A DNA stretch of 64,000 bases from an uncultured Acidobacteriota bacterium (GTDB lineage Bacteria > Acidobacteriota > Vicinamibacteria > Vicinamibacterales > UBA2999), in assembly GCA_963814955.1 (NCBI GenBank), contig CAWFEX010000008.1, forward strand, positions 755,992 to 819,991, written 5' to 3'. The position numbers and the translations under genes were made by a program. The notes beneath the pieces are model-generated. The model worked only from the letters and a program-made list of their open reading frames with translations. It ran no database searches and had not been told where the DNA came from. The first letter of the stretch is position 1; every line of letters starts with the position of its first letter. Shown here in pieces: positions 43,483 to 58,226 of the stretch.

Positions 43483-44205
43483 CTAATCGATAGCGAAGCA
43501 GTAGAACAACCCGACACCGCCCCAACTGACCAGATCCCGCTGACTGCAGCCGGTTGTGGCGTGCGAGGAGTTCCACGACTGGTTCCCGTTGCCCACGCGA
43601 TCGGAATGACCGACTTGCGCGGAACCTGCGCCGTTGCTCGTCCAGTTGTTGCACGTGTGATCCGCCGCCTCGGTGAACGCGCGTCCATCGGGTTGTGAGC
43701 CAGTCAGAATGTCATGGCGGGTCGGCATCGGGTCGCCGATGCCATTCACGAGCTCCCCTTTTTCGGTGAGCGCGAATTCCTTCGTCAGGTTGCTGCCGCG
43801 GCGCGCTTCATCCAGCGTGTCGCCGTGTATCTCGGACTGAATGATCGGGCGGCTGAGCCGGCGCTTGAGATAATCCGGAACTCTCTCCTTCGCGCTGAAC
43901 CACGGGCCTTTGCCAATACGATCTCGAGCGTTCACGGCCGGCTGGCCGGGCCGGGCCTGCGTGCTGAGATACGCGCGCCACGTCTTGCTCCCTGCGCCAA
44001 CGGCGCTGGCAAGTTTCTGACAGTGCGCGTCGGCACCCGCCAGACCACCAAGGTTGGCTCCGTCTCCGATCGGCTCGCTGGTCACGAAGAACGTCATGAG
44101 GCTCGAGGGAATGCGATCCGGGAGCGGAGCTTTCGCTTGCTCTTGCGCGAACGCGGTGCCGGACACCACACAACCGACGAATGCTGACAGCAATAAGCTC
44201 TTCAT
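43483..44205 (-). CDS. Secreted endostatin-like / DUF1554-like (C-type-lectin-fold) protein, paralog 1
   Basis: Signal peptide MKSLLLSAFVGCVVSGTAFA, then MTFFVTSEPIGDGANLGGLAGADAHCQKLASAVGAGSKTWRAYLST...HTCNNWTS...TGCSQ...GLFYCFA. There are four conserved Cys. Its start is 7 nt after the stop of the paralog upstream. Confidence 0.8.
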   Translation of the reverse strand: MKSLLLSAFVGCVVSGTAFAQEQAKAPLPDRIPSSLMTFFVTSEPIGDGANLGGLAGADAHCQKLASAVGAGSKTWRAYLSTQARPGQPAVNARDRIGKGPWFSAKERVPDYLKRRLSRPIIQSEIHGDTLDEARRGSNLTKEFALTEKGELVNGIGDPMPTRHDILTGSQPDGRAFTEAADHTCNNWTSNGAGSAQVGHSDRVGNGNQSWNSSHATTGCSQRDLVSWGGVGLFYCFAID

Positions 44206-44212
44206 GGCGGGG

Positions 44213-44989
44213 TCAATTCGTCGCGAAGCAGTAAAACATGCCGACGCCATGGGTCCGGTTCAACGCGGTCTGGCTGCAGCCGGTCGTGCCATGCGATGAA
44301 TTCCACGAGCCGTTGCCGCCGCCATTGCGATCGGGAAAACCGATTTGCGCATTCGGCCGGCCCGGGCCGGCTTCCAACGCGCCTTGCGCCTGTCCGGGAG
44401 CCGGGTCTCTGTTGCTCGTCCAGTTGTTACACGTGTAGTCGAGGTCCGGCGGATAAGCCCGGCCGTCGAGCTGTGACCCCGTCAGCATCTCGTGCCGGTT
44501 GGTATACGGCGTTGTCTTCGTGTATTCCCAATCGCTGTCCCGCGGTACCTGATAGTCGTTGAGCCCCGGCACGATCTGGCCCTTTTCGGTCAGTCCCGTT
44601 CGTTTGGTGAGGTTGTTGCCCATTCGCGCCAGCTCGATGGTGTCTCCATGCAGGTGGGCGAGGTCGCGGGCGATCATCACGCCCTCGAAGTTGTACCAAG
44701 GCCCCGTTCCGATTCGATCGCGCGCATTCACGGCAGGCTGACCCGGGCGGGCTTGCGTGCTGACGTAGGCGCGCCACGTCCGATTGCCCACACCGACCGC
44801 GGTGGCGAGTTTCTGACAGTGCGCATCCGCGCCGGCCAGGCCACCGAGATTCCCACCATCGCCGATTGGCTCGCTGGTCACGAAGAAGGTCATCGGCGTG
44901 CCGCCCGGCATACCGTGTTGCGCGACCGTGATCGACGGCGCAGCCGCCGAAAGCATCAGAATTGCCGTCAAAAGCAGGACTGATTTCAT
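44213..44989 (-). CDS. Secreted endostatin-like / DUF1554-like protein, paralog 2
   Basis: MKSVLLLTAILMLSAAAPSITVA, then MTFFVTSEPIGDGGNLGGLAGADAHCQKLATAVGVGNRTWRAYVST...YTCNNWTS...TGCSQ...GMFYCFA. Clearly paralogous to 43483..44205. Confidence 0.8.
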   Translation of the reverse strand: MKSVLLLTAILMLSAAAPSITVAQHGMPGGTPMTFFVTSEPIGDGGNLGGLAGADAHCQKLATAVGVGNRTWRAYVSTQARPGQPAVNARDRIGTGPWYNFEGVMIARDLAHLHGDTIELARMGNNLTKRTGLTEKGQIVPGLNDYQVPRDSDWEYTKTTPYTNRHEMLTGSQLDGRAYPPDLDYTCNNWTSNRDPAPGQAQGALEAGPGRPNAQIGFPDRNGGGNGSWNSSHGTTGCSQTALNRTHGVGMFYCFATN

Positions 44990-45067
44990 GCGCGACTCCA
45001 TTGATTGTCGTGGGATCCAGACGAAGTCTAGCCCGACTTCGCTGCCGCTGCGGGTGCCCGTCGAGCG

Positions 45068-45934: not shown

Positions 45935-47152
45935 ATGCCGCGGATGAAGTACTTACACGCTTCGACACACTTTCTCGCAGCCATCGCGCTCGCCATTACG
46001 TGGTCTGCTCCCGTCGTAGCTCAGGGCCGCACGGACGAGATCGCGAAGCAGCAGGAACAGAAGGCGCAGACGACGACGCCATACAGCCCGAATCGAGTGG
46101 AAGTCTTCCTGGACCAGGTTGAACAGGGCAAATGGATTCTTGGAGTTCCGCGAGGGTGGTACTTCGCAATGGGGTCGGTCTATCCCGGTGGCGGTCTGGC
46201 AGGCGGCGCCGGATACCGCCATTACATTGGCTATGACTCGTATGTCGACTCGAGCGCCGTCCTTTCATTGAAGGGCTACAAGAGACTTCGATTGACGGGC
46301 TACACGCCCAACCACGTGAATGGCCGCGTGGATCTCGAAGGGTCGATCGTCTGGCTCGACGCGACACAAATTGCGTTCTACGGACTCGGCAACGCGTCCC
46401 AGGTGGACAACAGAACGAACTTCCGTATCAATCGGTCCTACGTAGAGGGGGCCGCAATCGTGCGCCCGGTGAAATGGCTCGGCCTGCGGCTGGATGGCGG
46501 GATAGACGACTATACGCAGAAGCGGGGCACCGGTGCGTCTCCTTCGATCGAACAGGTCTTCTCGCCCGAGACGGCGCCTCTACTGGGCGACAACCCACTG
46601 TACCTGCGCGGTGAGGCAACCGCCACGGCCTACTGGCTCCAGTCGCCGGGTTACAGCCGTAGCGGGGGCCTTTATAGCGTGGCGTACGAAGAGTTCAACC
46701 CTATCCGAGGCAGCGGCAGAACGTTCGGGTTCCTGCGGACGCAGGTCGTGCAACACGTGCCCGTACAACGCGAGACATGGGTGATCTCACTCCGTGCCGG
46801 TACTGAATCGATCGTTCGCAAATCAGACGTCGTGCCGTACTTTCTCATGCCCACGCTGGGGAGCGGCGACACGTTGCGCGGTTACGCGAACCAGCGGTTT
46901 CGCGACCGGCACAGCCTGCTGATCTCGAGCGAGCTGCGATGGTTTCCGAATCGCGTCGGGTTCGACATGGCGCTCTTCGTTGACATGGGAAAAGTTGCTC
47001 CGTTCCGGAGCGGTCTGACGCTGAACGACCTGAAGACGGACTACGGCATCGGCGTCCGGTTTCATACACCTGCTGCGACGGTGCTGCGGCTCGATCTGGC
47101 GAAGGGCGACGAAGGCATGCGTCTCGTCATTGCGGGTGGACCCGCTTTCTAG
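45935..47152 (+). CDS. Omp85/BamA-family outer-membrane beta-barrel (surface antigen D15 domain) with no recognisable POTRA domains
   Basis: Signal peptide (HFLAAIALAITWSAPVVAQG), L6-loop-like LGSGDTLRGY, and the terminal DYGIGVRFHTPAATVLRLDLAKGDEGMRLVIAGGPAF ending in Phe. Confidence 0.8.
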   Translation: MPRMKYLHASTHFLAAIALAITWSAPVVAQGRTDEIAKQQEQKAQTTTPYSPNRVEVFLDQVEQGKWILGVPRGWYFAMGSVYPGGGLAGGAGYRHYIGYDSYVDSSAVLSLKGYKRLRLTGYTPNHVNGRVDLEGSIVWLDATQIAFYGLGNASQVDNRTNFRINRSYVEGAAIVRPVKWLGLRLDGGIDDYTQKRGTGASPSIEQVFSPETAPLLGDNPLYLRGEATATAYWLQSPGYSRSGGLYSVAYEEFNPIRGSGRTFGFLRTQVVQHVPVQRETWVISLRAGTESIVRKSDVVPYFLMPTLGSGDTLRGYANQRFRDRHSLLISSELRWFPNRVGFDMALFVDMGKVAPFRSGLTLNDLKTDYGIGVRFHTPAATVLRLDLAKGDEGMRLVIAGGPAF

Positions 47153-47165
47153 GAGGGAGCGAGCT

Positions 47166-48839
47166 GTGTCCTGTGATCAGCGTGCGGCCGTGGTCGGTGT
47201 CATTGTCGCCGCGTGTGCCGCTGCCGTCGTGGCGGTCTCCGCCGGCGATCAGAAGTTCTACGACGACGATCCGATCCTGCGGGAGCCCGAGACTCAGGAC
47301 GCTTCGAAAGTACAGGCCTGGAAAAACGTTCTCAGTTACGACCTGATCCACAACCTTTTCGCCTCGCCCGCTGATAAACAACCGATTCGAGCGCAGGACA
47401 TCAACACCATCGACGAGCTGCCCGACTCGGGTTGGTTTACGAACCGGATTCTCGCGAGGGAGGTCTCGCTCGAGGAGGCCGTGCGTGGGCCCGTCACCGG
47501 GCCGGGCCCCGCGGCCGGACCCATGACGGTGACCCGTGCCAAACCCGAAGGCGTCAGTCCCGGGTTCGTGTTGCAGGACTCCGCCGGCGTGACGTGGTTT
47601 GTTCAATTCGACGCGGCGAAGTATCCGGAGGCGGCCACGGGTGCGGCGATCGTTGCCAACAGGATCTTTCACCTGCTCGGGTACTGGCAGGCGGAATATC
47701 ACCTTGCCGAGCTGCGGCCCGAAACGCTGTCAATCGGTCCGAAGGCGACCACCGAGACGCCGTCGGGCAAGATCCGGGCGCTCGATCGCGCCGACCTCGA
47801 CAAGCTGCTCGGGCGGGCTGCGCGGCAACCGGACGGCACGTATCGGATGCTGGCCAGCCGTGCGATTGCCGGCCGGGTTCTCGGTGGTTTCCGTTATCAG
47901 GGTACGCGGCCCGATGATCCGAACGACGTGATTCCTCACGAGCATCGGCGCGAGCTGCGCGCGCTGAAAGTGTTTGGCGCGTGGACCAATCTCGTGGACA
48001 TGAAAGCCGGAAACACCCTCGATACGCTCATCCAGGAAAACGGACGGGGCGTCGTTCGTCATTATCTGCAGGATGTCGGATCGACGTTTGGCACCGGAGC
48101 GTTGGCGCCGCGCGAATGGGACGAGGGATACGAATATCTGTACGAAGGCGACGCCGTCTGGAAGCGCCTCGTCACCCTCGGTCTTTACAGACGACCCTGG
48201 CAGAGCGTTCCGTACACCGAGTACCGCTCGATCGGCCGTTTCGAGGGGGATGAATTCGACCCTGTCGCATGGAAGCCTCGCGTACCGACCACGGCGTTTC
48301 TCCATGCGCGGTCGGATGACAATTTCTGGGCGGCGCGACGCGTCATGGCATTTTCGGACCAGTTGATTCGTTCCGCCGTTTCCGCCGGCCGGTTCAGCGA
48401 CGATGCCGCGGGGCGCTACCTTGCCGATGTTCTGATCAAGCGCCGCGACCGAATCGGCCGCGCCTATCTGACAGCCATCAACCCCGTTGTCGACGTGGCA
48501 TTGGACCAATCCGGCGTGCTGACGTTCAGTAACGCCGCGGTCGACGCCGAGGTGGCCGCAGCGCCGGCAGGCGGTTATCGCGCGCACTGGTATGTGTTCG
48601 AGAACGCCACCAGAGAGTCTCAGCCGCTGGGCACCCCGACGGCCGCGCCAACGGGCCGCATGAAAGCGCCCCCGGAGCTGCCCGACAAGGCGGGCGTGTT
48701 CGTACGGATCGATATCGAAGCAGTCGATCCGCCGCATCCCTCGTGGACCGTTCCGGTCCGCGCCTACTTCAGGCGTACCACCGACGCATGGAAACTCGTC
48801 GGGTTCGAACGAACACCGGAAGATTCAGACGTTCAGTAG
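47166..48839 (+). CDS. Exported or membrane-anchored conserved hypothetical protein (about 557 aa) downstream of the Omp85-like gene
   Basis: AGGAGG lies 9 nt before the GTG at 47166. N-terminal hydrophobic anchor AAVVGVIVAACAAAVVAV. Long ORF with good coding character. No family was recognised. Confidence 0.7.
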   Translation: MSCDQRAAVVGVIVAACAAAVVAVSAGDQKFYDDDPILREPETQDASKVQAWKNVLSYDLIHNLFASPADKQPIRAQDINTIDELPDSGWFTNRILAREVSLEEAVRGPVTGPGPAAGPMTVTRAKPEGVSPGFVLQDSAGVTWFVQFDAAKYPEAATGAAIVANRIFHLLGYWQAEYHLAELRPETLSIGPKATTETPSGKIRALDRADLDKLLGRAARQPDGTYRMLASRAIAGRVLGGFRYQGTRPDDPNDVIPHEHRRELRALKVFGAWTNLVDMKAGNTLDTLIQENGRGVVRHYLQDVGSTFGTGALAPREWDEGYEYLYEGDAVWKRLVTLGLYRRPWQSVPYTEYRSIGRFEGDEFDPVAWKPRVPTTAFLHARSDDNFWAARRVMAFSDQLIRSAVSAGRFSDDAAGRYLADVLIKRRDRIGRAYLTAINPVVDVALDQSGVLTFSNAAVDAEVAAAPAGGYRAHWYVFENATRESQPLGTPTAAPTGRMKAPPELPDKAGVFVRIDIEAVDPPHPSWTVPVRAYFRRTTDAWKLVGFERTPEDSDVQ

Positions 48840-48855: not shown

Positions 48856-51264
48856 CTAGGTTCCCGCGGCCTCGGGAAGGTGGGCCTCCCACCATTTCTG
48901 TGCCCGCTCGTTCGTCCACGATCTGTCGCAGGGCACGCGCGACAGCTCGACATCAAGCTGAAGTGCCGAAGCAGGTCGCTTCGCCGGATCTTTTTCGAGA
49001 CACTGCATCAGGATCGCGTCGAGCTGCCGGGGAATGAAGAGCTCCGACCGCTTCGACGGAGGTTCAGGTCGCGCCTGCACGTGTTGCACGAGCATCCGTG
49101 CCGCGCTGGTTGCTTCAAAAACCGTCTGCGCGGTAAGCGCCCAATAGGCCGTGCACGCGAGTGAGTACACATCTGCACGACCGTCGATGGAGCTCTCGCC
49201 CAGCACGATCTCAGGGGGCATGAAAGCGGGCGTCCCCTGCACGATGTTCTGGTTCGAAAGCATCGTGGCGTCATGTCCCGACTGATCCTTGACGACGCCA
49301 AAATCGAGGATTTTCACGTAATCGTATTCCGTTCCTAAACGCGTCACGAACAGGTTGGCCGGCTTGATGTCTCGATGCACGAGTCCTCGCTCGTGAGCCT
49401 CGGCGAGCGACCGGCACGCCTGGCGCAGGAGCACGATTACGCGCTCGGCCGGCTGGGGACCGAAACGAGTGACGATGTGGTGCAGATCGAGTCCATCCAG
49501 GAACTCCATCACGTAGTAGAAGCTGCCGGTCTCGTTGACGCCGAAATCGTAGAGCTGCACGGTGTGCGGCGACCTCAGTCCCGCGGTCACCTGTGCTTCG
49601 CGCTCGAACCGTCGAACGAGCTGCTCGCGCGCCGCTCCAGGCGGGACGTCGTGACGAATGAGCTTTACCGCCGCAGGACGGACGAGAAACCGGTGCCTTG
49701 CGAGCCAGACCTCGCCCATCCCTCCGGCACCGAGCTGCGACACCAGGCGATAGCTGCCGACAGCCAGGTCCTCGTTCAACTGCTCCTCTTCGACTTCGAG
49801 TAGGGTGCTCTTGCAGAGGAGGACGGCGCGTTCGAGCACGGTCCGCAGCTCGCGGATGTTTCCAGGCCAGGCGTAGGCCTCGAGCCGTCGCATCGAGTCG
49901 GGTGACACCCCGTCGATCACCTTCCCCAGACGGCGTGCGTGCCGACGCACGAAGTGATCGACGAGCGCCGGCAAGTCCTCCCGCCGGTCGATGAGCGGCG
50001 GTACATGGATGCGGTTGGCGTTGAGCACGTGAAAGAGAGGCAGGAACGCGCCTGCCGGCGGCTGCCGGACATCATGCGTCATCGAGGCGATCAGCCGTAC
50101 GTCAGGCACCTCCGATTCGCCGCGAGGTGGAGCGCCCCGATTTTTTTCCAGGGCCGCATGAAGCGCCTGCTGGAGGTCGACCGGCAGCTCATGAACCGCG
50201 TCGAGAAACACCGTACCGCCCGAGGCAAGTTCGAATCGGCTCGCGATGAAGGACCTTTCCGCCTTGTGTGAAGTGGCAGCGTCGGAGATCGCGTGTCGAT
50301 GCTGAGTGTTCAGCTCGGGACAGCTCACGAATATGAACGCGCCCGCGCGCCCGGACGCGTCGTGCACCGCGCGAGCCACGGCCTCCTTGCCAGACCCGGC
50401 AGGACCTGTCAGCAGAAGAGGCTCGTTCGAACTGGCCTGGCGCGCGATGGCATCGCGCAGCGCTCGAACAACGGGACTGCCACCGAGCAAGGGCCCTTCC
50501 ACGCGATGGCGCGCCTCGTTGAGCAGCGCTTGCGCCACGCGCAGTTCGCGCTCGAGCGCCGCGGTTCGCTCCGCGACCCTGGCCTCGAGCGACATGTTGG
50601 CCTCCTGAAGCGCGGCAGAGGCGAGCCGTTCCTGCGCATAGAGTTTGGCATTGTGGATCGCGCTCGCAATCTGGTTGGCGACGATTGACACCAGATCGCG
50701 TTCATGCTGGCCAAACGAGCGCAGCACGGGACTTTCAATCGAGAACACGCCGATGAGGTCGTCGCGCATTAAAAGCGGAATGGCGATTTGACTTTCCGCG
50801 TTGGGCAGCCCGGGCACCGGGATCGTCTGGCCAAGCTGCGATTGTCGGCCCGAACGTTCCATTTCGCGCCGCTGGGCCGCCGCGTACGCACGCTGCTGCC
50901 CCAGGTTGTTGACGTGCATCATTCGACGCTTCTGCGCCACCATTCCGATCACGCCCGTTCCCACCTGCGCGCACCCGCCGATCGCCTGGTTCTCGTAGCC
51001 CCTGCTGGCGATGACTCTCAGCGTTCTGTTATCCGGCTCGAGCAGGAGAATGCTGGCGTGGTGAAACTCGAACAACTCGTCCATCGTGCGCAACACCGCA
51101 TCGCAGATTTCGTCGAGATCGAGCGTGGAATTGATATCGGCGGACACGCGCTGCAGGATCTGGACCTCGGCGGTCTTCCGGGCAAGGTCCGCGGCTTCTT
51201 TGCTCGAATCCTGGTTCACCATTCGGTGCGCGATCTCCCGAGGCGTAGTACAAACGTGAATCAC
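48856..51264 (-). CDS. Multidomain regulator: GAF, coiled coil, degenerate sigma54-type AAA+ domain, Ser/Thr protein kinase
   Basis: GAF region (ILQRVSADINSTLDLDEICDAVL...IAIPLL...LIGVFSIES). AAA+ domain (LLLTGPAGSGKEAVARAVH, GGTVFLDAVHEL, PPLIDRREDLPALVDHF, WPGNIRELRTVLERAVLL). Kinase domain (LGAGGMGEVWLA, AAVKLI, HRDIKPANLF, LDFGVVK, GTPAFMPPE). Confidence 0.85.
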   Translation of the reverse strand: MIHVCTTPREIAHRMVNQDSSKEAADLARKTAEVQILQRVSADINSTLDLDEICDAVLRTMDELFEFHHASILLLEPDNRTLRVIASRGYENQAIGGCAQVGTGVIGMVAQKRRMMHVNNLGQQRAYAAAQRREMERSGRQSQLGQTIPVPGLPNAESQIAIPLLMRDDLIGVFSIESPVLRSFGQHERDLVSIVANQIASAIHNAKLYAQERLASAALQEANMSLEARVAERTAALERELRVAQALLNEARHRVEGPLLGGSPVVRALRDAIARQASSNEPLLLTGPAGSGKEAVARAVHDASGRAGAFIFVSCPELNTQHRHAISDAATSHKAERSFIASRFELASGGTVFLDAVHELPVDLQQALHAALEKNRGAPPRGESEVPDVRLIASMTHDVRQPPAGAFLPLFHVLNANRIHVPPLIDRREDLPALVDHFVRRHARRLGKVIDGVSPDSMRRLEAYAWPGNIRELRTVLERAVLLCKSTLLEVEEEQLNEDLAVGSYRLVSQLGAGGMGEVWLARHRFLVRPAAVKLIRHDVPPGAAREQLVRRFEREAQVTAGLRSPHTVQLYDFGVNETGSFYYVMEFLDGLDLHHIVTRFGPQPAERVIVLLRQACRSLAEAHERGLVHRDIKPANLFVTRLGTEYDYVKILDFGVVKDQSGHDATMLSNQNIVQGTPAFMPPEIVLGESSIDGRADVYSLACTAYWALTAQTVFEATSAARMLVQHVQARPEPPSKRSELFIPRQLDAILMQCLEKDPAKRPASALQLDVELSRVPCDRSWTNERAQKWWEAHLPEAAGT

Positions 51265-51285: not shown

Positions 51286-51741
51286 TCAATCGTTCGCCGA
51301 GGCTCTGGTATCGGCTGGCGATGGGGCCCATGCAGGGTACTGCACCCGCTCCACTGAGAGCACCCGGTAGATATCGGCGGCACGGAGCTTGAAAATGCCG
51401 GACATCCCGGTCATCGACGCGATGGCCTCAATCTGCATGTCCATCGCATCGAAGATCGGGCCTTCGGTCTCGGACCGCTGAAATTCGAGCTGCAGCTCCC
51501 AGTGTGCGCTTCCTGGCATATCGAAGACACATACAAAGGCCCGAGGATTCTCGCGAACGTTGCGGATCGTTTTGGAGAAGAACTGAAACGAGAGCGCCGC
51601 ATGCGTCTCGTCCACGTAGTAGACCTGTGAGATGACCGTGGTGTTCGGTTTCCCGTCCGCGGAGCAGGTCACCATGACTCCTGGTGTCCCGCTCTCGAGC
51701 ACAGGACGTATCTCGGGTGGAAGGCGGGTCAGCGGCGTCAC
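51286..51741 (-). CDS. Pyridoxamine-5'-phosphate-oxidase-like (FMN-binding split-barrel) family protein
   Basis: The GTG start overlaps the TGA of the upstream gene (GTGA). Sequence VTPLTRLPPEIRPVLESGTPGVMVTCSADGKPNTTVISQVYYVDETHAALSFQFFSKTIRNVRENPRAFV. The family call is tentative. Confidence 0.6.
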   Translation of the reverse strand: MTPLTRLPPEIRPVLESGTPGVMVTCSADGKPNTTVISQVYYVDETHAALSFQFFSKTIRNVRENPRAFVCVFDMPGSAHWELQLEFQRSETEGPIFDAMDMQIEAIASMTGMSGIFKLRAADIYRVLSVERVQYPAWAPSPADTRASAND

Positions 51742-52220
51742 TGCTCCACCGGCGGAATGAGTCGCGTCCCCGCACCCGGACCCGGCGTCTGCAAATAGAC
51801 TTCCGACACCTCGAAATCGACAGCCAATGCCGGTGGCGAGACGAACGCATTTATGAGGTCGTCCGCTTGAATGTGGAAGATCGGTTTCACGCTCTTCACA
51901 AAACGTCGGCGAATGCGATTCACCGTCTCGACGTCGTCTGGAAGCGTCTGACGATGGCGTAGGTAGCGCCCCTTGAACTGATAGGTCTCGTGCGACGGGA
52001 ACGCCTCGACGGTAACGGCCACTTCGCCATTGTGCTGGAGCGATTCGACGAGCCGATGCGTGAACTCGGCTGGAATGAAGACCGTCATCGTCCGTTGATC
52101 CGAGTCGAGGCGCCACCCTGACACGCGATTGCCGAAAGGGACAAGATTGCGATCGCGGGTGCCGGCAAACGCCAGGTTGGCGTGCTGTTCCAAGAAGCGG
52201 ACGATTTTTCCGGGAATCAA
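51738..52220 (-). CDS. Pyridoxamine-5'-phosphate-oxidase-like family protein
   Basis: IVRFLEQHANLAFAGTRDRNLVPFGNRVSGWRLDSDQRTMTVFIP... The start codon is TTG per the ORF track. The family call is tentative. Confidence 0.65.
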   Translation of the reverse strand: MIPGKIVRFLEQHANLAFAGTRDRNLVPFGNRVSGWRLDSDQRTMTVFIPAEFTHRLVESLQHNGEVAVTVEAFPSHETYQFKGRYLRHRQTLPDDVETVNRIRRRFVKSVKPIFHIQADDLINAFVSPPALAVDFEVSEVYLQTPGPGAGTRLIPPVEQ

Positions 52221-52865: not shown

Positions 52866-52904
52866 CCCTTCACGAGACGACGTGGCACGTCGTCTCGTGA
52901 AGGG
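52866..52904. terminator. Bidirectional intrinsic-terminator-like hairpin between convergent genes
   Basis: Perfect 18-bp stem cccttcacgagacgacgt / acgtcgtctcgtgaaggg with a 3-nt loop, between the stops at 52851 (+) and 52919 (-). Confidence 0.7.
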
Positions 52905-52918
52905 TGTGTGTTGCGTTA

Positions 52919-54568
52919 CTATCTCTCCGGTCGAAGGGTCTCGACCCGCCCGTTCGTTCCGATCGGCTCGCCCGACACGACCAGTTCGACGCGACGATTC
53001 TGCTGTCGCCCTTCCGGCGTTCCGTTCGTGGCCACGGGACGGCTTTCCCCGAATCCGGCGGTGCCGACGGTCTCTGGAGCAATACCCTGCTCGATGAGGA
53101 ACGCACGAACGGATGCCGCCCGCTGTTCGGACAACCGCTGGTTGTAATTGTCAGTACCGATGCTGTCGGCGTGTCCCTCGGCCTCCATCTCCAGTCCCGG
53201 ATGCGACTGGATGATGCCGGCGATCCTGGCGAGCTTCTCGCGCGCACCCGGCCTGAGCGTGGCTTTGTTGAAATCAAAGAGTACGTCCGACAGGTTCACG
53301 ATGAGGCCGCGGGCCGTTTCGCGGGTCTCGAGGATCACGTTGAGCTGTTCGCGCAGCTGCTCGCGAAGTTCGGCCTTCTCACGCTCGGCGCGCAATGCCT
53401 CATCTCGTGCCGCCTGGGCCTGAGCTTCTGCAGAGGCGCGTGCCGCTTCTGCAGAGGCGCGTGCCGCTTCAGCGGCGGCGCGCTCGCGCTCCGCATCGAG
53501 CGTGGCCCGCTCCGCGTCGGCTTTAGCGCGGTCGGCGGCCATCCTGGCGGCGTCGGCATCCAGCCGTTGACGCTCTGCCGCGAGCCTTGCGGCGTCAGCG
53601 CGCGTCCGCTCGGCCTCGGCCCGCTCGCGCGCGTCTTCTTCCGCACGCGCTCGCGCAAGCGCGTCCGCTTCCCGCTGGGCCGCCAGCGCGCGCTCGCGCG
53701 CCTGAAGCTCCTCTTCCCGCCGCTGCAAGGCGATGATGCGCGCGTCCTCTGCCGTCTGAACCGCCTGCCGCGCGGGCTGCTGCACGGTATTCCCGCCTTT
53801 GCGCCGCTCGCGCGCCAGTTCCGCTTCGCGCAACAGCGCCGCGGCCTTCGCATACGTGTCGGCCGCGTACTCATTGGCGCCGGCCACGCCCGCGAGCGCC
53901 ACGGCGTTGCGCGCTTGCGCGAGATCGAGCTGGGTACCAGGTTCCGGCGCCTTCACCTTCAGCGCCGCGTAGTCCTGATTCATGACGTAGGTGCCGCGTT
54001 TGAGCAGCTCGTACTTGGCGTCGATCGTCTCGACCCGGCCGTCGGTTCCGCGCTTCACGGCGTTTTCCATGATGACGACGTCGCTCGGCTGGGTGACCGC
54101 AAAGTACGGCTCCGCCGTCACGATCAAGCCAAAGGCCTGCAGTTCGGTGGTGACGCGCACGCGCCGCTCGTCTTCAATCTGCAGTTCGCCGAGGTTCGTG
54201 GCGCGACCCTCGGGAGTAATGGCCCACATGACATACGTCAGGTACTCGGGTCCGAACTGCGTCGGCGGACCGATCCGATCGAACTCGCCGGTGATCTCGA
54301 TGTACCCCTTCTTTCCGCTGACGTCGATTTCGCCGCGGGCCCGCGGCATCAACGAGGTGCCGACCATGTCGAGCTCGGTGTCGCCGCGACGCGGCCGGTA
54401 GTTCACAGCCGCAACGGTGCGACCGACGATCGTCACACGAAAGACGGGCCGTCCTTCTGCATCAGTTGTCACGTTCTGCTGAACGGGATTCGGCGCCGTC
54501 TGCGCGAGTGCGGTTCCGCCGAACAATCCACCTGACACCAACACAGCAGCAACGATTCGGCTGAGCAT
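52919..54568 (-). CDS. Exported OmpA-family protein with a long Ala/Arg/Glu coiled-coil linker
   Basis: GGAGG RBS followed by ATG at 54568. Signal peptide MLSRIVAAVLVSGGLFGGTALA. Central region ERALAAQREADALARARAEEDARERAEAERTRADAARLAAERQ. C-terminal OmpA domain LFDFNKATLRPGAREKL...NYNQRLSEQRAASVRAFL...NRRVELVV. Confidence 0.85.
   Translation of the reverse strand: MLSRIVAAVLVSGGLFGGTALAQTAPNPVQQNVTTDAEGRPVFRVTIVGRTVAAVNYRPRRGDTELDMVGTSLMPRARGEIDVSGKKGYIEITGEFDRIGPPTQFGPEYLTYVMWAITPEGRATNLGELQIEDERRVRVTTELQAFGLIVTAEPYFAVTQPSDVVIMENAVKRGTDGRVETIDAKYELLKRGTYVMNQDYAALKVKAPEPGTQLDLAQARNAVALAGVAGANEYAADTYAKAAALLREAELARERRKGGNTVQQPARQAVQTAEDARIIALQRREEELQARERALAAQREADALARARAEEDARERAEAERTRADAARLAAERQRLDADAARMAADRAKADAERATLDAERERAAAEAARASAEAARASAEAQAQAARDEALRAEREKAELREQLREQLNVILETRETARGLIVNLSDVLFDFNKATLRPGAREKLARIAGIIQSHPGLEMEAEGHADSIGTDNYNQRLSEQRAASVRAFLIEQGIAPETVGTAGFGESRPVATNGTPEGRQQNRRVELVVSGEPIGTNGRVETLRPER
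53425..53466. repeat. Perfect 21-bp x2 in-frame tandem duplication in the OmpA-family coiled-coil region
   Basis: cttctgcagaggcgcgtgccg occurs twice and encodes AEAARAS twice. Confidence 0.85.
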
Positions 54569-54690
54569 AAGAACCTCCGGCACTTTCCCGAGCAAATGTC
54601 CCGCCATTGCCGACCTAAATCCACGTTGTTCGGATGCCTTTTCGTCACACCACTTGTTGACTACAAACGCACAGAATCTCCTCTCTATTA

Positions 54691-54741
54691 CCCGTTTGCG
54701 GGAACCGGCTTCCATCCGCCCGTTTGCGGGAACCAGCTTCC
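54691..54741. promoter_or_regulatory. Two 23-bp direct repeats in the divergent intergenic region (candidate regulator-binding sites)
   Basis: cccgtttgcgggaaccggcttcc (54691-54713) and cccgtttgcgggaaccagcttcc (54719-54741) match at 22 of 23 positions with a 28-bp period. Each contains a CCCG-TTTG-CGGG mini-palindrome. They lie between the divergent starts at 54568 (-) and 54856 (+). Confidence 0.3.
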
Positions 54742-54855
54742 TTCGCCCCGCGGCCTGCACGATTCCCATCACGGATCGGAATGGGCCTTGCACCCACTTA
54801 TGCCGACCGATATGGCCGAGGCGCGCCATCGTTCACGACGCCTGGAGGTAGAACG

Positions 54856-55558: not shown

Positions 55559-58226
55559 TCAGCGACCTCGCACAGAGCGGTCGACGGCGGGCTCGTCTTC
55601 GTCGGTATTCGGAGCAGATGGCAGAGATGCAAGCAGCTTCATGATGACTTCGTCATCCACAGGCTTGACGAGGTGTGCGTCGAAGCCAACGTCCTTCGAC
55701 TTCTGACGATCCTCGTCCTGCCCCCACCCCGTCAGCGCCACGAGCAGAAGATCCCGGCCCCACGGCTGTTCCCGAATCCGACGGCACACCTCGTAGCCGT
55801 CCACGACCGGCAGCCCGATGTCGAGCAGAACCGCATCGGGCCGGATCCGTTCGGCAACACTGATTGCCTCGATGCCGTCGTGAGCGACGTGCGTCTCATG
55901 GCCGTTCAGATTCAACAACGTCGCGAGCCATTCCGCGGCGTCCTCGTTGTCGTCGACGATCAGGATGCGACGCTGCGTCGTGGACGGAGGTCCGGCGGCG
56001 GCCTCCCGTGAGATGGACTCGGGCAGTTCGGCCACACTGGGCAGGCGAACAACGAATTCGCTCCCGCGGCCAAGTCCCTCACTGTGGCCTTCGACCGTAC
56101 CTCCGTGCATCTCCACCAGCGTCTTCACCAGCGTAAGACCGATGCCCAACCCGTCCCGTGAACGCTCCAGCGACGTATCGACCTGCGTGAACATCGCGAA
56201 CAGCCGGGGAAGCTGGTCGGCAGCGATGCCGATGCCGTTGTCTCTCACTCTGACAACGGCGTGCGCGGCGTCCTGCTCGACAGTCAGCCACACGTGGCCA
56301 CCTTTGTCGGTGAACTTGCACGCGTTGTTCAGGAGGTTCCCGAGGACCTGAGTGAGTCGCATCGGGTCGGCATCGACGTAGAAGGGCTTGAGCGGCAACG
56401 TCACCGTCAGTTCATGGTTCATGGTCTTGTAAAGAGCACGAGTGGCCTCGACCGCATGGTTGATGATGGGGGCCAGTTCGACCCGCTCTTTGCGGAGTTC
56501 AATCTTGCCGCGCGTGATGCGGCTCATGTCGAGCAGGTCGTCCACCAGCCGGACCATCTGGCCGACCTGGCGCTCCAGCATTTCGGACGCCGCGTGGATG
56601 GCTTTTCCGTCGCCGCTCAGGCGTAGCGCTCGAACCGCGTTGCTGATGGGCGCAAGGGGATTGCGCAGCTCGTGCGCCAGCATCGCCACAAACTCGTTCT
56701 TGCGGCGGTCCGCTTCGGACAGATCGGTCGCCACACGCCGCAAGTCGTCCTCAAGCCGCTTCCGCTGCGTCACCTCCTGGCTTACGGTCGCAAGCGCCAC
56801 CGGACGTCCGTCGGCGCCCGGCAATGTCAGCACCTTGTACGCCATCCAGCGAGCCTCGCCGGTCTTGAAGTGTCGAAACCGAATCTCGATCTCGCCGTGA
56901 CCCTTTTCAAGGACGGACGGAAAGAACTCGTCCATCATGCGTTGCTGGTCTTCGGGGAAGAAGAACGAAAGCAGCGGTGTGCGTCGGGCTTCCTCGACGC
57001 TGTCGAGCCCGACCATCTCCAATCCCGCCCGGTTGACGAAGAACGGGATGCCGTTCAGATCGCACATGCCGATGAAGTCGGTGCTGTTTTCAACGAGCGT
57101 GACGAATTTCTCGCGATCCGCCTCGGCCCGCCGCTGCAACGTGACATCGCGCGCGATCTTTGACGCCCCGACCACGGTACCGGCGGCGTCCTTGATCGGC
57201 GAAATCGTGAGTGAAACGAGGATGCGCTGACCGTCCGATCGTGCACGCTCGGTTTCAAAATGTTCGATCCGTTCGCCCGCCTTCAAGCGGGCAACAATCT
57301 CGTCTTCTTCCGCGATCCGTTCGGGAGGGATGATCAGAGAGATATGGCGGCCAACAGCCTGATCGGAGGTATACCCGAATACATGCTCCGCACCGGCATT
57401 CCAGCTCTGAATGACACCGTCGAGCGACTTGCTGATGATGGCGTCGTCCGAGGATTCGACGATGGATGCGAGCAGACGCGCCGTCAGAAGCTGGTTTGCC
57501 TTGTCCTTCTCCAGACCGCGCTGCACCGTAATGTCTCGGAAGATCAGCACGCATCCGGCAACCTGACCTCTTTCGTCGGTGATCGGGGCGGCGCTGTCAT
57601 CGATCGGACACTCGCGCGCCGTCCTTCTGAATCAGCACAGTGTGGTTCGCGAGGCCGACGACGACTCCTTCACGAAGGGCTTTGGTTGCCGGATTTTCGA
57701 CCGGCCGATGAGTCTCCTCGTTGACGATTCGAAAAACCGCATCCAGCGGTTGACCGAGGGCATTCCCCAGTGTCCAGCCGGTCAACGACTCGGCAACGGA
57801 ATTCAGATTGGTGATGTGGCCTTGCACGTCGGTGGTGATGACGGCGTCGCCAATGCTGCGAAGCGTTACCTGCAACAATTCGTGCCGGTCGTCTGCCCGA
57901 GCCCGGGCTCGGCGCATGGCCTCGCCAAATCCGATGATCAGTGCACATGTGAAAAGATACGCAACCAACCCGACGACATTTGCGATGTTGTCCAGGCGAA
58001 GACTGCCTCGAGGTGGAATGAACAGATACGCACACGCCACGTAGCCGAGGATCGTCACGATCACGGCCAGACGATACCCGCCCACCCACGCTGCAGCGGC
58101 AACAGCCCCGAACAGCGTGACGAGCGGCAGCGTGTCACCCATCAGGGGATCGAGCGCCCAGCGGAGCAGGACGGCCGCCACAACGGCGGCGATGGCTAAT
58201 GCGTAAGAAATAGCCGAGCTTCGCAA
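55559..58226 (-). pseudogene. Hybrid sensor kinase: DUF4118-like membrane module, 3xPAS, HisKA/HATPase, REC; +1 frame break near 57598-57608
   Basis: ORF 57597..58226 carries TM helices and the first PAS, and ends ...LIQKDGARVSDR*. The PAS continues in the +1 frame as (I/V)DDSAAPITDERGQVAGCVLIFRDITVQR, which leads into ORF 55559..57550. Downstream are the H-box FVAMLAHELRNPL, G-box GLGIGLTLV and receiver ILIVDDNEDAAE...LDIGLPVVDG. Confidence 0.85.

What the first reader, a model, noticed from the sequence alone, without database searches (positions are those of the whole stretch)
48856..51264. Unusual fusion: GAF sensor, degenerate sigma54-type AAA+ module, and Ser/Thr protein kinase in place of a DNA-binding domain
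The central domain has the hallmarks of bacterial enhancer-binding proteins: Walker A GPAGSGKE, PPLIDRREDLPALVDHF and WPGNIRELRTVLERAVLL. It lacks a recognisable GAFTGA sigma54-contact loop; that region reads VSCPELNTQHRHAISDAATSHKAERSF. Its Walker B is FLDAV rather than FLDE, so the catalytic Glu is absent. The usual C-terminal Fis-type HTH is replaced by an apparently catalytically competent Hanks kinase (VAIK-like AAVK, HRDIKPANL, DFG, PPE). This looks like a ligand-gated (GAF) oligomerising scaffold that drives a kinase rather than transcription. I do not know of a characterised example of this architecture.
Basis: partly seen in the sequence, partly recalled or inferred. Interest (0 to 1): 0.6.

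Follow-up and report, generated by a model that had tools for sequence, protein, structure and literature searches.

The report
Sensor kinase built on dead enhancer-binding ATPase
This gene encodes a real, widely conserved but uncharacterised signalling protein in which a ligand-sensing GAF domain and a catalytically dead copy of the ATPase that normally switches on sigma-54 transcription are fused to an intact Ser/Thr protein kinase instead of a DNA-binding domain.

Summary
ORF 48856-51264(-), with a likely true start at ATG 51222 (788 aa), encodes GAF, an S-helix, Sigma54_activat plus AAA_lid_14, and a PknB-like Pkinase domain. There is no HTH. It is not a chimera: more than 120 sequence clusters from independent assemblies (JGI, ENA, NCBI, Logan; named members are Vicinamibacterales) share the full architecture.

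It lacks GAFTGA, the Walker B Glu and both Arg fingers. Its sigma-54-contact loops are the fastest-evolving part of the protein. The GAF domain, linker, lid and kinase are strongly conserved, and every kinase catalytic residue is invariant.

The AAA+-kinase core defines a large modular family. Receiver (REC), PAS, MHYT, tandem-GAF and giant STAND-type N-termini are fused to the same core, and REC forms mostly lack even the P-loop lysine. The GAF clade always (7 of 7 loci) follows two tightly coupled genes for split-barrel (flavin/F420/haem-fold) proteins.

Best reading: this is a cytoplasmic sensor Ser/Thr kinase descended from enhancer-binding proteins. A pseudo-ATPase relays sensor-controlled assembly to kinase trans-activation. 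The architecture is shown; the mechanism is inferred. I found no characterised example. I rate it a new variant of known kinds, interest about 0.6.

The parts
48856..51222 (-). CDS of the GAF / S-helix / pseudo-AAA+ / Ser-Thr kinase protein. It is 788 aa from ATG 51222. The mechanical ORF extends to GTG 51264, giving 802 aa.
   Evidence: ORF. Homologues start at the Met-15 position. Domains.
50653..51123 (-). GAF sensor domain (ORF residues 48-204). It carries a clade-specific, highly conserved insertion (LGQQRAYAAAQRR...).
   Evidence: Pfam GAF_2 3e-16. Nearest solved GAFs are PtsP 3ci6 and 3e0y. 49 of 137 columns are invariant within the clade.
50488..50652 (-). Signalling helix (S-helix) linker with the ERT signature: ...LEARVAERTAALERELRVAQALL...
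   Evidence: AF2 predicts a single helix at 172-245 in Met-15 numbering. Translation. The ERT signature and parallel coiled coil are described in PMC1592074. It is the most conserved segment of the clade, with top-residue frequency 0.89.
50059..50487 (-). Degenerate bEBP-type AAA+ alpha/beta subdomain (Sigma54_activat, ORF residues 260-402).
   Evidence: Pfam 1e-18. PDB hits ZraR 1ojl 1.5e-36 and NtrX 5m7n 2.4e-33. It is the least conserved folded domain in the clade, at 0.68.
50383..50406 (-). Walker A P-loop GPAGSGKE, retained.
   Evidence: Lys is kept in 109 of 120 clade members, with Arg in 10 and Glu in 1.
50227..50325 (-). Region equivalent to the L1 / GAFTGA sigma-54 contact loop. It is replaced by unrelated, hypervariable sequence.
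   Evidence: 0 of 120 (GAF clade) and 0 of 118 (REC clade) sequences have G[AS]F[TS]GA. Conservation is 0.56, with indels. AF2 confidence is low here.
50194..50208 (-). Walker B FLDAV. The Asp is kept and the catalytic Glu is replaced by Ala.
   Evidence: E108-equivalent: Glu in 0 of 120, Ala in 111 of 120.
49789..49989 (-). AAA+ lid (AAA_lid_14, ORF residues 426-492) with PPLIDRREDL and WPGNIREL (sensor II Arg kept).
   Evidence: Pfam 2e-21. Conservation 0.84. WPGN is near-invariant across the whole family.
48970..49752 (-). Hanks-type (PknB-like) Ser/Thr kinase domain, ORF residues 505-765. It has the G-loop, AAVK Lys, alphaC Glu, HRD, DFG and an activation loop ending in PPE.
   Evidence: Pfam Pkinase 7e-39. 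PknB 1.5e-48 by sequence and Foldseek 9e-23 at 36-37% identity. Catalytic residues are invariant. Translations.
48859..48969 (-). Conserved Trp-rich C-terminal tail (PWT..RA..WW).
   Evidence: Invariant or near-invariant W769/W777/W778 in the clade, and W549/W557/W558 in family alignment A2.
51286..51741 (-). Gene B: a 151-aa PNPOx-like split-barrel protein, co-transcribed upstream. Its GTG start overlaps the stop codon of gene A (GTGA).
   Evidence: Sequence. Pfam PNPOx_N 1.4e-7, above the cut-off. Weak match to TIGR03618 F420-PPOX. Present in 7 of 7 GAF-clade loci at 79-82% identity.
51738..52220 (-). Gene A: a 160-aa protein with no Pfam hit and a predicted split-barrel (flavin/F420/haem-binding) fold. 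It is the first gene of the conserved three-gene unit.
   Evidence: AF2 pLDDT 84, pTM 0.82. Foldseek PDB hits are HupZ 7kpz, Rv1155-F420 4qvb, HutZ and Rv2074. Present in 7 of 7 loci. 924 homologues, all labelled 'hypothetical'.

Best explanation
[quoted passage not shown] The DNA-binding domain has been replaced by a PknB-like Hanks kinase. The AAA+ motor has decayed into a pseudo-ATPase: there is no GAFTGA sigma-54 contact loop, no Walker B Glu and no arginine fingers. It therefore cannot remodel sigma-54 RNA polymerase and almost certainly does not hydrolyse ATP. In this clade the retained P-loop Lys, Walker B Asp and sensor II Arg mean it may still bind nucleotide.

Proposed mechanism (inferred):
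1. The GAF domain binds a small-molecule or redox-type signal. That signal is probably supplied, modified or reported by the two co-transcribed split-barrel (flavin/F420/haem-fold) proteins.
2. The signal passes down a parallel dimeric S-helix into the pseudo-AAA+ module.
3. As in bEBPs, the input domain then controls how the AAA+ protomers pack: off-state dimer versus an alternative dimer or higher-order assembly.
4. That packing sets the proximity and orientation of the C-terminal kinase domains, which are tethered by a short conserved linker. This permits PknB-style N-lobe dimerisation and activation-loop trans-autophosphorylation.
5. The active kinase then phosphorylates unknown substrates.

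Shown: the architecture, motif states, conservation pattern, synteny, and the family-wide modularity of the sensor. Inferred: ligand identity, oligomeric switch, activation mode and substrates. The confidence value refers to the whole package. The architectural part (a bEBP-derived pseudo-AAA+ fused to an active-looking kinase, not a sigma-54 activator) is above 0.9.
For: - Architecture and homology.
- Not an artefact: more than 120 clusters from four data sources share the architecture, and 94 of the top 150 representatives at 50% identity have AAA+ followed within about 5-10 residues by the kinase.
- Loss of motor and sigma-54 functions. GAFTGA is present in 0 of 238 sequences. In the GAF clade the Walker B Glu is present in 0 of 120, the R162 position is deleted in 120 of 120, and R168 is Arg in 14 of 120. 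In the REC clade the P-loop Lys is kept in only 4 of 118. Some members of the query clade have GSGRE or GSGED P-loops and FLS or FLE Walker B motifs.
- Selection pattern within the clade (top-residue frequency): GAF 0.86, linker 0.89, lid 0.84, kinase 0.85, against AAA+ alpha/beta 0.68, L1 0.56 and pre-sensor-I 0.46.
- Kinase competence: the Lys, Glu, HRD, Asn, DFG, TP..PE and alphaF Asp residues are invariant in A1 and A2. The Leu aligned with PknB L33, the N-lobe dimer-interface residue whose L33D/E mutants are in PDB entries 3ori and 6i2p, is conserved.
- S-helix: one 74-residue helix with the ERT signature. PMC1592074 describes the S-helix as a parallel coiled-coil switch found between GAF/PAS sensors and catalytic domains, including NtrC-like AAA+.
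- bEBP-like modularity: the same core takes REC, PAS, MHYT, tandem-GAF or Pkinase-AAA_16-GAF inputs. REC forms retain the DD/D/K receiver consensus and sit next to Hpt, hybrid histidine kinase and REC-SpoIIE genes.
- Conserved operon: gene A, gene B and the kinase are syntenic in 7 of 7 loci, with overlapping or tightly spaced coding sequences. Both partners have the split-barrel fold.
Against: - No oligomeric state, nucleotide binding, kinase activity, ligand or substrate was or could be measured here.
- AF2 gives only a monomer with uncertain inter-domain geometry (pTM 0.43).
- In bEBPs, ring assembly is normally promoted by nucleotide binding. Loss of the P-loop Lys in most REC-type relatives argues that, at least there, a classical nucleotide-dependent hexamer is unlikely, so the AAA+ module may be only a static dimeric spacer.
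- A simple heptad scan of the linker was not decisive.
- Gene A's fold matches have modest TM-scores (0.5-0.6), and no cofactor-binding residues were verified.
- The partners could be substrates or unrelated metabolic genes rather than co-sensors.
Confidence: 0.55

Rival explanations
1. The pseudo-AAA+ module is a static structural spacer or dimerisation scaffold. The signal travels purely through the S-helix dimer, as in histidine kinases and cyclases, with no change in oligomeric state and no ring.
For: - An S-helix with ERT implies a parallel dimer.
- Nucleotide-binding residues are lost in most family members.
- The alpha/beta subdomain is weakly conserved.
Against: - The AAA+ fold plus lid has been retained across at least 90 clusters at 50% identity and with five or more different sensor types.
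- The lid and the WPGN motif are strongly conserved. That is hard to explain for a mere spacer, since kinases of the same subfamily also exist without it.
Confidence: 0.25
2. In the GAF clade the AAA+ module is a non-hydrolysing nucleotide (ATP/ADP) sensor, so the kinase integrates energy status with the GAF signal.
For: In this clade the P-loop Lys is kept in 109 of 120, the Walker B Asp in 109 of 120 and the sensor II Arg in 117 of 120, while the hydrolysis residues are gone. GAFTGA-less bEBPs that need ATP binding but not hydrolysis are reported, for example R. capsulatus NtrC, cited in bioRxiv 10.1101/2023.06.06.543975.
Against: About 9% of clade members have lost the Lys or the Asp. The sister REC clade has lost the Lys almost entirely, so nucleotide binding is not a family-wide requirement. 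This rival is compatible with the main explanation rather than exclusive of it.
Confidence: 0.2
3. It is still a transcription activator: a DNA-binding-domain-less bEBP acting from solution on sigma-54, or a sigma-70-type GAFTGA-less bEBP like NtrX, VpsR or Caulobacter NtrC. The kinase would be an accessory domain.
For: The best AAA+ family-level scores are to NtrX and NifA and to ZraR and NtrX structures. GAFTGA-less bEBPs exist.
Against: - There is no HTH.
- There is no GAFTGA, no Walker B Glu and no Arg fingers.
- Scores are far below every equivalog cut-off, for example NtrX 154 against 600.
- All known GAFTGA-less bEBPs keep the HTH.
- No sigma-54 promoter-like site beyond chance was found.
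Confidence: 0.03
4. It is an anti-phage defence kinase of the PD-T4-6 or MADS Mad6 type.
For: PADLOC PD-T4-6 models hit at up to 9e-74 and mad6 at 1e-58. NCBIfam MADS6 hits at 7e-39.
Against: - The hits cover only the generic kinase domain (residues ~499-781).
- The NCBIfam score of 134 is below the cut-off of 460.
- The operon partners have no PADLOC hit.
- The gene sits in a conserved three-gene unit in Vicinamibacterales, with housekeeping-like and variable flanks and no defence or mobile genes.
Confidence: 0.04
5. It is an assembly or gene-calling chimera of a bEBP and a kinase.
For: The source looks like a long-read metagenome assembly, and a relative (L002) carries a frameshift in gene A.
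Against: More than 120 clusters at 68-100% identity, plus more than 120 REC-type clusters, carry the same continuous AAA+-kinase junction. They come from JGI, ENA, NCBI and Logan assemblies, and the junction linker is conserved.
Confidence: 0.005

Closest known systems
GAF-containing bacterial enhancer-binding proteins (NifA, NorR, FhlA; Pfam GAF + Sigma54_activat + HTH_8)
   Same: - Same N-to-C logic: a GAF sensor, a helical linker, then a Sigma54_activat AAA+ domain with lid.
- NCBIfam NifA and FhlA models align across GAF plus AAA+ (residues 33-498 and 10-492).
- Lid motifs (PxLxxRxxD, WPGNIREL) are kept.
   Different: - No GAFTGA, no Walker B Glu, no Arg fingers and no HTH.
- The C-terminus is a Hanks kinase.
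- Scores are far below the equivalog cut-offs, for example 154 against 529 for NifA.
GAFTGA-less 'unconventional' bEBPs (NtrX, R. capsulatus and Caulobacter NtrC, VpsR, TyrR)
   Same: An EBP-type AAA+ domain that has lost the sigma-54 contact loop. In some of them ATP hydrolysis is dispensable. NtrX is the top NCBIfam AAA+ match and the second-best PDB match.
   Different: These all keep a C-terminal HTH and act as DNA-binding regulators at sigma-70 promoters. Here the output is a protein kinase, and the degeneration goes further, with both Arg fingers gone.
PknB-type Hanks Ser/Thr kinases (M. tuberculosis PknB, PknA, PknE; S. aureus Stk1)
   Same: - The kinase domain is 36-37% identical to PknB.
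- The catalytic motifs are complete.
- It is an RD kinase with Thr-containing activation loop.
- The PknB L33-equivalent Leu is conserved.
   Different: - PknB is a transmembrane receptor with an N-terminal kinase and extracellular PASTA sensors.
- Here the kinase is C-terminal and soluble, and sits behind GAF and a pseudo-AAA+ module.
- The PknB_PASTA_kin score is 223 against a cut-off of 450.
Sensor-S-helix-output proteins (GAF/PAS histidine kinases, cyclases, PP2C phosphatases, NtrC-like AAA+) as defined by Anantharaman, Balaji and Aravind 2006 (PMC1592074)
   Same: A GAF domain followed by a long helix with the ERT signature, placed between a sensor and a downstream signalling domain.
   Different: In the passages retrieved from that paper, the listed downstream partners include NtrC-like AAA+ ATPases. 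A composite pseudo-AAA+-Hanks kinase output does not appear among them.
Oligomerisation-activated response regulators with enzymatic output (e.g. WspR REC-GGDEF, PMC3663191)
   Same: A working analogy for the REC-type sister clade and for the proposed mechanism: input-controlled self-association switches on a C-terminal enzyme (abstract).
   Different: Different output enzyme and a different assembly module. This is an analogy only and nothing was tested here.

Membership tests
Bacterial enhancer-binding protein (sigma-54 activator) | AAA+ domain homologous to Pfam Sigma54_activat, with its lid | tested here: met
   Sigma54_activat 1e-18 (68 bits against a cut-off of 20) and AAA_lid_14 2e-21. 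ZraR 1ojl matches at 1.5e-36.
Bacterial enhancer-binding protein (sigma-54 activator) | GAFTGA (L1) loop that contacts sigma-54 | tested here: not met
   The region reads ...NTQHRHAISDAATSHKAERSF.... The motif is present in 0 of 120 clade members and 0 of 118 REC relatives. The region is hypervariable with indels.
Bacterial enhancer-binding protein (sigma-54 activator) | Catalytic ATPase residues: Walker B Asp-Glu and trans-acting Arg fingers (PspF E108, R162, R168) | tested here: not met
   Walker B is FLDAV. In the GAF clade Glu is present in 0 of 120, R162 is deleted in 120 of 120, and R168 is Arg in 14 of 120. The reference alignment is to E. coli PspF.
Bacterial enhancer-binding protein (sigma-54 activator) | C-terminal Fis-type HTH (HTH_8) enhancer-binding domain | tested here: not met
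   No HTH_8 hit at E<=1. Residues 505-765 are Pkinase.
Bacterial enhancer-binding protein (sigma-54 activator) | ATP-dependent isomerisation of the sigma-54 RNAP closed complex | not testable with these tools
   Needs in-vitro transcription and ATPase assays.
Hanks-type (eukaryote-like) Ser/Thr protein kinase | Pkinase fold above the curated threshold | tested here: met
   Pkinase 134 bits against a cut-off of 31.7. PknB matches at 1.5e-48 by sequence and TM(target) 0.8-0.9 by fold.
Hanks-type (eukaryote-like) Ser/Thr protein kinase | Complete catalytic residue set: G-loop, beta3 Lys, alphaC Glu, HRD Asp, catalytic-loop Asn, DFG Asp, and APE-like Glu | tested here: met
   GAGGMG, AAVK, FEREA, HRDIKPANL, DFG and TPAFMPPE are all present. 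All are invariant in A1 (43 sequences) and A2 (60 sequences).
Hanks-type (eukaryote-like) Ser/Thr protein kinase | Phosphotransfer activity and activation-loop autophosphorylation | not testable with these tools
   Needs a biochemical assay.
PknB/Stk1 PASTA receptor kinases (NF033483) | Equivalog score, and an N-terminal kinase + TM + PASTA architecture | tested here: not met
   Score 222.7 against a cut-off of 450, with only the kinase part matching. No PASTA domain appears.
NtrX / GAFTGA-less sigma-70-type bEBPs | An AAA+ domain lacking GAFTGA, together with an HTH DNA-binding output | tested here: not met
   The lack of GAFTGA is shared. There is no HTH. The NtrX equivalog scores 154 against a cut-off of 600. 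Known examples all bind DNA.
Signalling helix (S-helix) | A long helix between sensor and output domains, with a central 'ERT' signature | tested here: met
   AF2 helix 172-245. AERTAAL is present, with R219/T220 invariant and E218 at >=90%. Definition from PMC1592074. The parallel dimer itself was not tested.
PNPOx-like FMN-binding split barrel (operon partners A and B) | Split beta-barrel fold or the PNPOx_N profile | tested here: met
   Gene B: PNPOx_N 32.4 bits against a cut-off of 28.1. Gene A: AF2 pLDDT 84, with Foldseek hits to HupZ, Rv1155, HutZ and Rv2074 at probability 1.0 and TM 0.5-0.6.
PNPOx-like FMN-binding split barrel (operon partners A and B) | A bound flavin, F420 or haem cofactor | not testable with these tools
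   Needs purification and spectroscopy. The TIGR03618 F420 subfamily scores only 28.6 against a cut-off of 79.
PD-T4-6 / MADS Mad6 defence kinases | A full-length match and a defence-island context | tested here: not met
   Only the kinase domain matches. MADS6 scores 134 against a cut-off of 460. The partners have no PADLOC hits, and no defence or mobile genes lie nearby.

The most novel reading that the evidence does not exclude
A widespread, previously undescribed class of bacterial signalling proteins in which the bEBP chassis (interchangeable sensor + AAA+ assembly module) has been re-purposed. A pseudo-ATPase ring or dimer converts sensor input into Ser/Thr phosphorylation instead of sigma-54 transcription. 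In the REC clade the input would be His-Asp phosphorelay. In this GAF clade it would be a signal from a dedicated heterodimeric split-barrel flavo- or haemoprotein co-sensor. This would be a direct hard-wired bridge between two-component and Hanks-kinase signalling, and a clear bacterial example of a pseudo-AAA+ regulatory domain.
Probability: 0.45. Interest if true: 0.72.

Novelty: new variant of a known kind. Interest (0 to 1): 0.6.

Why it matters
- It shows that the enhancer-binding-protein scaffold has been exapted for a non-transcriptional output. The scaffold was thought to exist to drive sigma-54 (or, rarely, sigma-70) transcription. The exaptation has happened at scale in abundant soil phyla (Acidobacteriota, Planctomycetota).
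- It offers a natural experiment on what an AAA+ fold does once all motor residues are gone (pseudo-enzyme biology). It also bears on how Hanks kinases can be gated by assembly.
- The REC-type sisters would be response regulators whose output is Ser/Thr phosphorylation. That would directly couple the two major bacterial phospho-signalling systems.
- Public pipelines name these proteins 'DNA-binding NtrC family response regulator' or 'transcriptional regulator with GAF, ATPase and Fis domain'. That is wrong, because they have no DNA-binding domain, and sigma-54 regulon predictions that count them as bEBPs would be inflated.

Tried and rejected
- Chimera or misassembly: rejected by recurrence in more than 240 clusters from independent assemblies.
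- Pseudokinase: rejected, because all catalytic residues are invariant.
- Functional sigma-54 activator or sigma-70-type bEBP: rejected on motifs and the absence of an HTH.
- Defence kinase: PADLOC and MADS hits cover only the generic kinase domain.
- Sigma-70 promoter and sigma-54 (-24/-12) scans around the operon gave nothing above chance: 0 promoter-like sites, and 57 matches against 65 expected.
- The terminator-like hits are not informative.
- Sequence searches of genes A and B against the PDB, singly or as profiles, gave nothing significant.
- hhalign of A against B was not significant with such shallow alignments. The fold had to be obtained by AF2 plus Foldseek.
- A crude heptad scan of the linker was not decisive.
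- Literature: nine full-text search attempts, one of them rejected for syntax, plus targeted reading of kinase-architecture and phosphosignalling papers, found no description of an EBP-AAA+/Pkinase fusion. The Perez et al. 2008 myxobacterial kinome paper is not held. From memory, myxobacterial kinase-EBP fusions place the kinase N-terminally and keep the HTH; this was not verified.
- The GAF ligand could not be inferred. The nearest solved GAFs (PtsP, 3e0y) are uninformative.

Full report
**1. Observation**

The ORF listing finds an 802-aa ORF at 48856-51264 on the minus strand. Pfam gives four domains, all above their curated cut-offs, and no HTH_8:
- GAF_2 at residues 48-204 (3e-16)
- Sigma54_activat at 260-402 (1e-18)
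- AAA_lid_14 at 426-492 (2e-21)
- Pkinase at 505-765 (7e-39)

NCBIfam models for NifA, FhlA, NorR and NtrX align over the GAF and/or AAA+ parts, and PknB-type models align over the kinase. All score far below their equivalog cut-offs.

Homologues begin at the Met-15 position, so the real start is probably ATG 51222, giving 788 aa. The window corresponds to, or is nearly identical with, a 660-kb ENA metagenome contig.

**2. Not an artefact, and not rare**

A search of 5.8 billion proteins returned more than 120 clusters at 68-100% identity with the identical architecture. They come from JGI, ENA, NCBI and Logan assemblies. Named members are Vicinamibacterales (Acidobacteriota). This removes the chimera scenario.

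**3. State of the AAA+ module**

I aligned the module to solved bEBPs (ZraR 1ojl 1.5e-36, NtrX 5m7n, FlrC, NtrC1, PspF) and to E. coli PspF fetched from MG1655. Results for the query:
- Walker A is kept (GPAGSGKE).
- The GAFTGA/L1 segment is replaced by unrelated sequence.
- Walker B is D-A rather than D-E.
- Both arginine fingers are gone (FRxDLxxRL becomes FLPLFHVL).
- The sensor I Asn is replaced.
- The sensor II Arg (WPGNIREL) is kept.

Across 120 clade members:

| Position | State |
|---|---|
| GAFTGA | 0 of 120 |
| Walker B Glu | 0 of 120 (Ala in 111) |
| R162 | deleted in 120 of 120 |
| R168 | Arg in 14 of 120 |
| P-loop Lys | 109 of 120 |
| Walker B Asp | 109 of 120 |
| Sensor II Arg | 117 of 120 |

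Individual members carry GSGRE or GSGED P-loops and FLS or FLE Walker B motifs.

Conservation within the clade is informative (top-residue frequency):

| Segment | Frequency |
|---|---|
| GAF | 0.86 |
| Linker helix | 0.89 |
| Lid | 0.84 |
| Kinase | 0.85 |
| AAA+ alpha/beta subdomain | 0.68 |
| L1 region | 0.56 |
| Pre-sensor-I region | 0.46 |

The two loops that engage sigma-54 in real bEBPs are therefore the least constrained parts of the protein. The module is a pseudo-ATPase. In this clade it may still bind nucleotide, but it has no machinery for hydrolysis or for sigma-54 contact.

**4. The kinase**

The domain aligns end to end with M. tuberculosis PknB (1.5e-48 by sequence; Foldseek 9e-23 at 36-37% identity). 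The G-loop, beta3 Lys, alphaC Glu, HRD, catalytic Asn, DFG, TP..PE and alphaF Asp are invariant in the clade alignment A1 and in the family alignment A2.

It is an RD kinase with conserved Thr residues in the activation loop. AF2 leaves that loop disordered. The Leu aligned with PknB L33, the N-lobe back-to-back dimer contact that is mutated in PDB entries 3ori and 6i2p, is conserved. That L33 mediates allosteric dimer activation is from my own knowledge of the PknB literature.

A Trp-rich C-terminal tail (PWT..RA..WW) is also conserved across the family.

**5. Linker**

AF2 (mean pLDDT 76.8) models one continuous helix at 172-245 between the GAF and AAA+ domains. It contains ...LEARVAERTAALERELRVAQALL..., with R-T invariant and the preceding Glu in at least 90% of sequences.

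Anantharaman et al. define the S-helix by exactly this ERT signature. They describe it as a parallel coiled-coil switch placed between GAF/PAS sensors and catalytic domains, including NtrC-like AAA+ (PMC1592074). The input side is therefore most likely a parallel dimer.

**6. A large modular family**

An exhaustive HMMER scan of 1.84 billion representatives at 50% identity shows that 94 of the best 150 have an EBP-type AAA+ domain followed within about 5-10 residues by this kinase. The N-termini differ:
- PAS
- receiver (REC)
- membrane MHYT
- tandem GAF
- proteins of about 2000 aa with Pkinase-AAA_16-...-GAF in front of the core

None of 76 representatives has GAFTGA. Most have lost the P-loop Lys (replaced by Q, E or H), the Walker B Glu and the Arg fingers. 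Only the giant forms (P0127, P0133, P0135) keep near-intact Walker and Arg-finger motifs.

A profile search returned 120 further clusters, all REC-Sigma54_activat-lid-Pkinase. Named members are Planctomycetota, Vicinamibacterales, Vicinamibacteria and Bryobacterales. In those, the P-loop Lys survives in 4 of 118, while the receiver consensus (DD...D...K) is intact. Their neighbours include an Hpt protein, a large HAMP-PAS protein and a REC-SpoIIE phosphatase.

A genome scan was dominated by generic kinases. It did add full-core loci from Vicinamibacterales, a 'proteobacterium' MAG and Planctomicrobium. Kinases of the same subfamily also occur behind TPR or unknown N-termini without the AAA+ module.

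**7. Operon context**

In 7 of 7 GAF-clade loci the kinase gene is preceded on the same strand by two small genes with overlapping or tightly spaced coding sequences. In the window these are gene A (52220-51738) and gene B (51741-51286). The GTG start of gene B overlaps the stop of gene A (GTGA), and the kinase ATG lies 63 nt downstream of gene B.

- Gene B matches PNPOx_N above threshold. At 79-82% identity it is more conserved than the kinase's own AAA+ domain in the same genomes.
- Gene A has no Pfam hit. Its AF2 model (pLDDT 84, pTM 0.82) matches split-barrel proteins that bind haem, F420 or FMN: HupZ, Rv1155, HutZ, Rv2074 and FMN-binding protein.

The pair is absent next to REC-type relatives. 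The other flanking genes vary. A PD40-type Hanks kinase lies next door in three loci.

**8. Interpretation**

The protein is a bEBP-derived one-component sensor kinase. What it works like is a bEBP or S-helix sensor, in which an input domain controls how downstream domains pack. Here the packing gates a PknB-like kinase rather than an ATP-driven sigma-54 remodelling machine.

What it is a member of:
- The Pkinase superfamily. All tested features were met.
- The Sigma54_activat fold family.
- It is not a functional bEBP. GAFTGA, the Walker B Glu, the Arg fingers and the HTH were all tested and not met.
- It is not a PknB or NtrX orthologue.

Whether the pseudo-AAA+ module forms rings, alternative dimers or a static scaffold could not be tested. 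Loss of nucleotide-binding residues in the REC clade argues against a classical nucleotide-driven hexamer there. Retention of those residues in the GAF clade leaves room for nucleotide-dependent assembly or nucleotide sensing. The A/B split-barrel pair is the best candidate for a redox, flavin or tetrapyrrole co-sensor, or for a substrate. That assignment is an inference from synteny only.

**9. Novelty**

Nine full-text search attempts, one of them rejected for syntax, and several targeted reads found no description of this architecture. Subscription literature is largely unsearched, and the key myxobacterial kinome paper was not available.

The known GAFTGA-less bEBPs (NtrX, Caulobacter and R. 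capsulatus NtrC, VpsR) all keep the HTH and regulate sigma-70 promoters. Public annotation pipelines mislabel these proteins as DNA-binding NtrC-family regulators.

I rate it a new variant of known kinds: real, abundant, uncharacterised and mechanistically interesting, but assembled from familiar parts. Interest is 0.6.

Noticed in passing
P0271-P0389; loci L008 5001-7184, L009 5001-7166, L010 5001-8348: A very abundant sister clade has REC-pseudoAAA+-Pkinase, that is, a response regulator whose output would be a Ser/Thr kinase. The P-loop Lys is mostly His or Gln. The genes sit next to an Hpt gene (L010), a 1865-aa HAMP-PAS protein (L009) and a REC-SpoIIE phosphatase (L008). Pipelines annotate them as 'DNA-binding NtrC family response regulator'.
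   Followed up: partly
P0127, P0133, P0135, P0136 (about 1900-2100 aa; representative library): Giant proteins with Pkinase-AAA_16(STAND)-...-GAF-Sigma54_activat-lid-Pkinase. Their EBP-type AAA+ module keeps Walker A GKE, Walker B DE (P0127, P0133) and the FRxDLYY Arg-finger region, but still has no GAFTGA. They may be a less decayed, ancestral-like form of the fusion.
   Followed up: partly
window 4907-6826 (-): A second Hanks kinase sits in the window: 639 aa, Pkinase plus a PD40/WD40-like beta-propeller. Similar Pkinase-PD40/Tricorn kinases lie immediately next to the GAF-AAA+-kinase gene in three related loci (L002, L003, L005), which hints at a possible kinase partnership.
   Followed up: partly
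window 55559-57550 (-): A hybrid histidine kinase (2 PAS, HisKA, HATPase_c, REC; 663 aa) lies about 4 kb upstream. On the near-identical ENA contig the same region was called as three separate genes (PAS 315 aa, HATPase_c 94 aa, REC 158 aa). This suggests frameshift differences or gene-calling splits in that long-read assembly.
   Followed up: no
window 52919-54829 (-): A 636-aa OmpA-family protein with a long, highly repetitive Ala/Glu/Arg-rich predicted coiled-coil segment (…AERTRADAARLAAERQRLDADAARMAADRAKADAERATLDAERERAAAEAARASAEAARASAEAQ…) before the OmpA domain. The opposite strand carries a long spurious ORF (52904-54535).
   Followed up: no
window 47130-48839 (+): A convergent 569-aa ORF ends 17 nt from the kinase stop codon. 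It has no Pfam or NCBIfam hit. On the ENA contig it was called as two genes (167 and 362 aa). It is not conserved next to the kinase in other loci.
   Followed up: partly
window 43483-44250 (-) and 44213-45001 (-): Two tandem paralogous secreted or lipoprotein-like genes (255 and 262 aa). They share the motif 'TFFVTSEPIGDGxNLGGLAGADAHCQKLA...' and have a faint DUF1554 match.
   Followed up: no
L002 about 7078-7558: In one related long-read contig, gene A (the split-barrel partner) is split by a frameshift: two tblastn segments lie in different frames. This is probably an assembly error rather than a pseudogene.
   Followed up: no
window 51123-50653 (GAF domain, Met-15 residues about 105-145): The GAF domain has a clade-specific insertion of about 20-35 residues with near-invariant sequence (NLGQQRAYAAAQRREM...VPVPGLPNAESQ). 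The insertion is absent from the nearest solved GAF domains (3e0y, 3ci6). It could be a partner- or ligand-binding lid.
   Followed up: no
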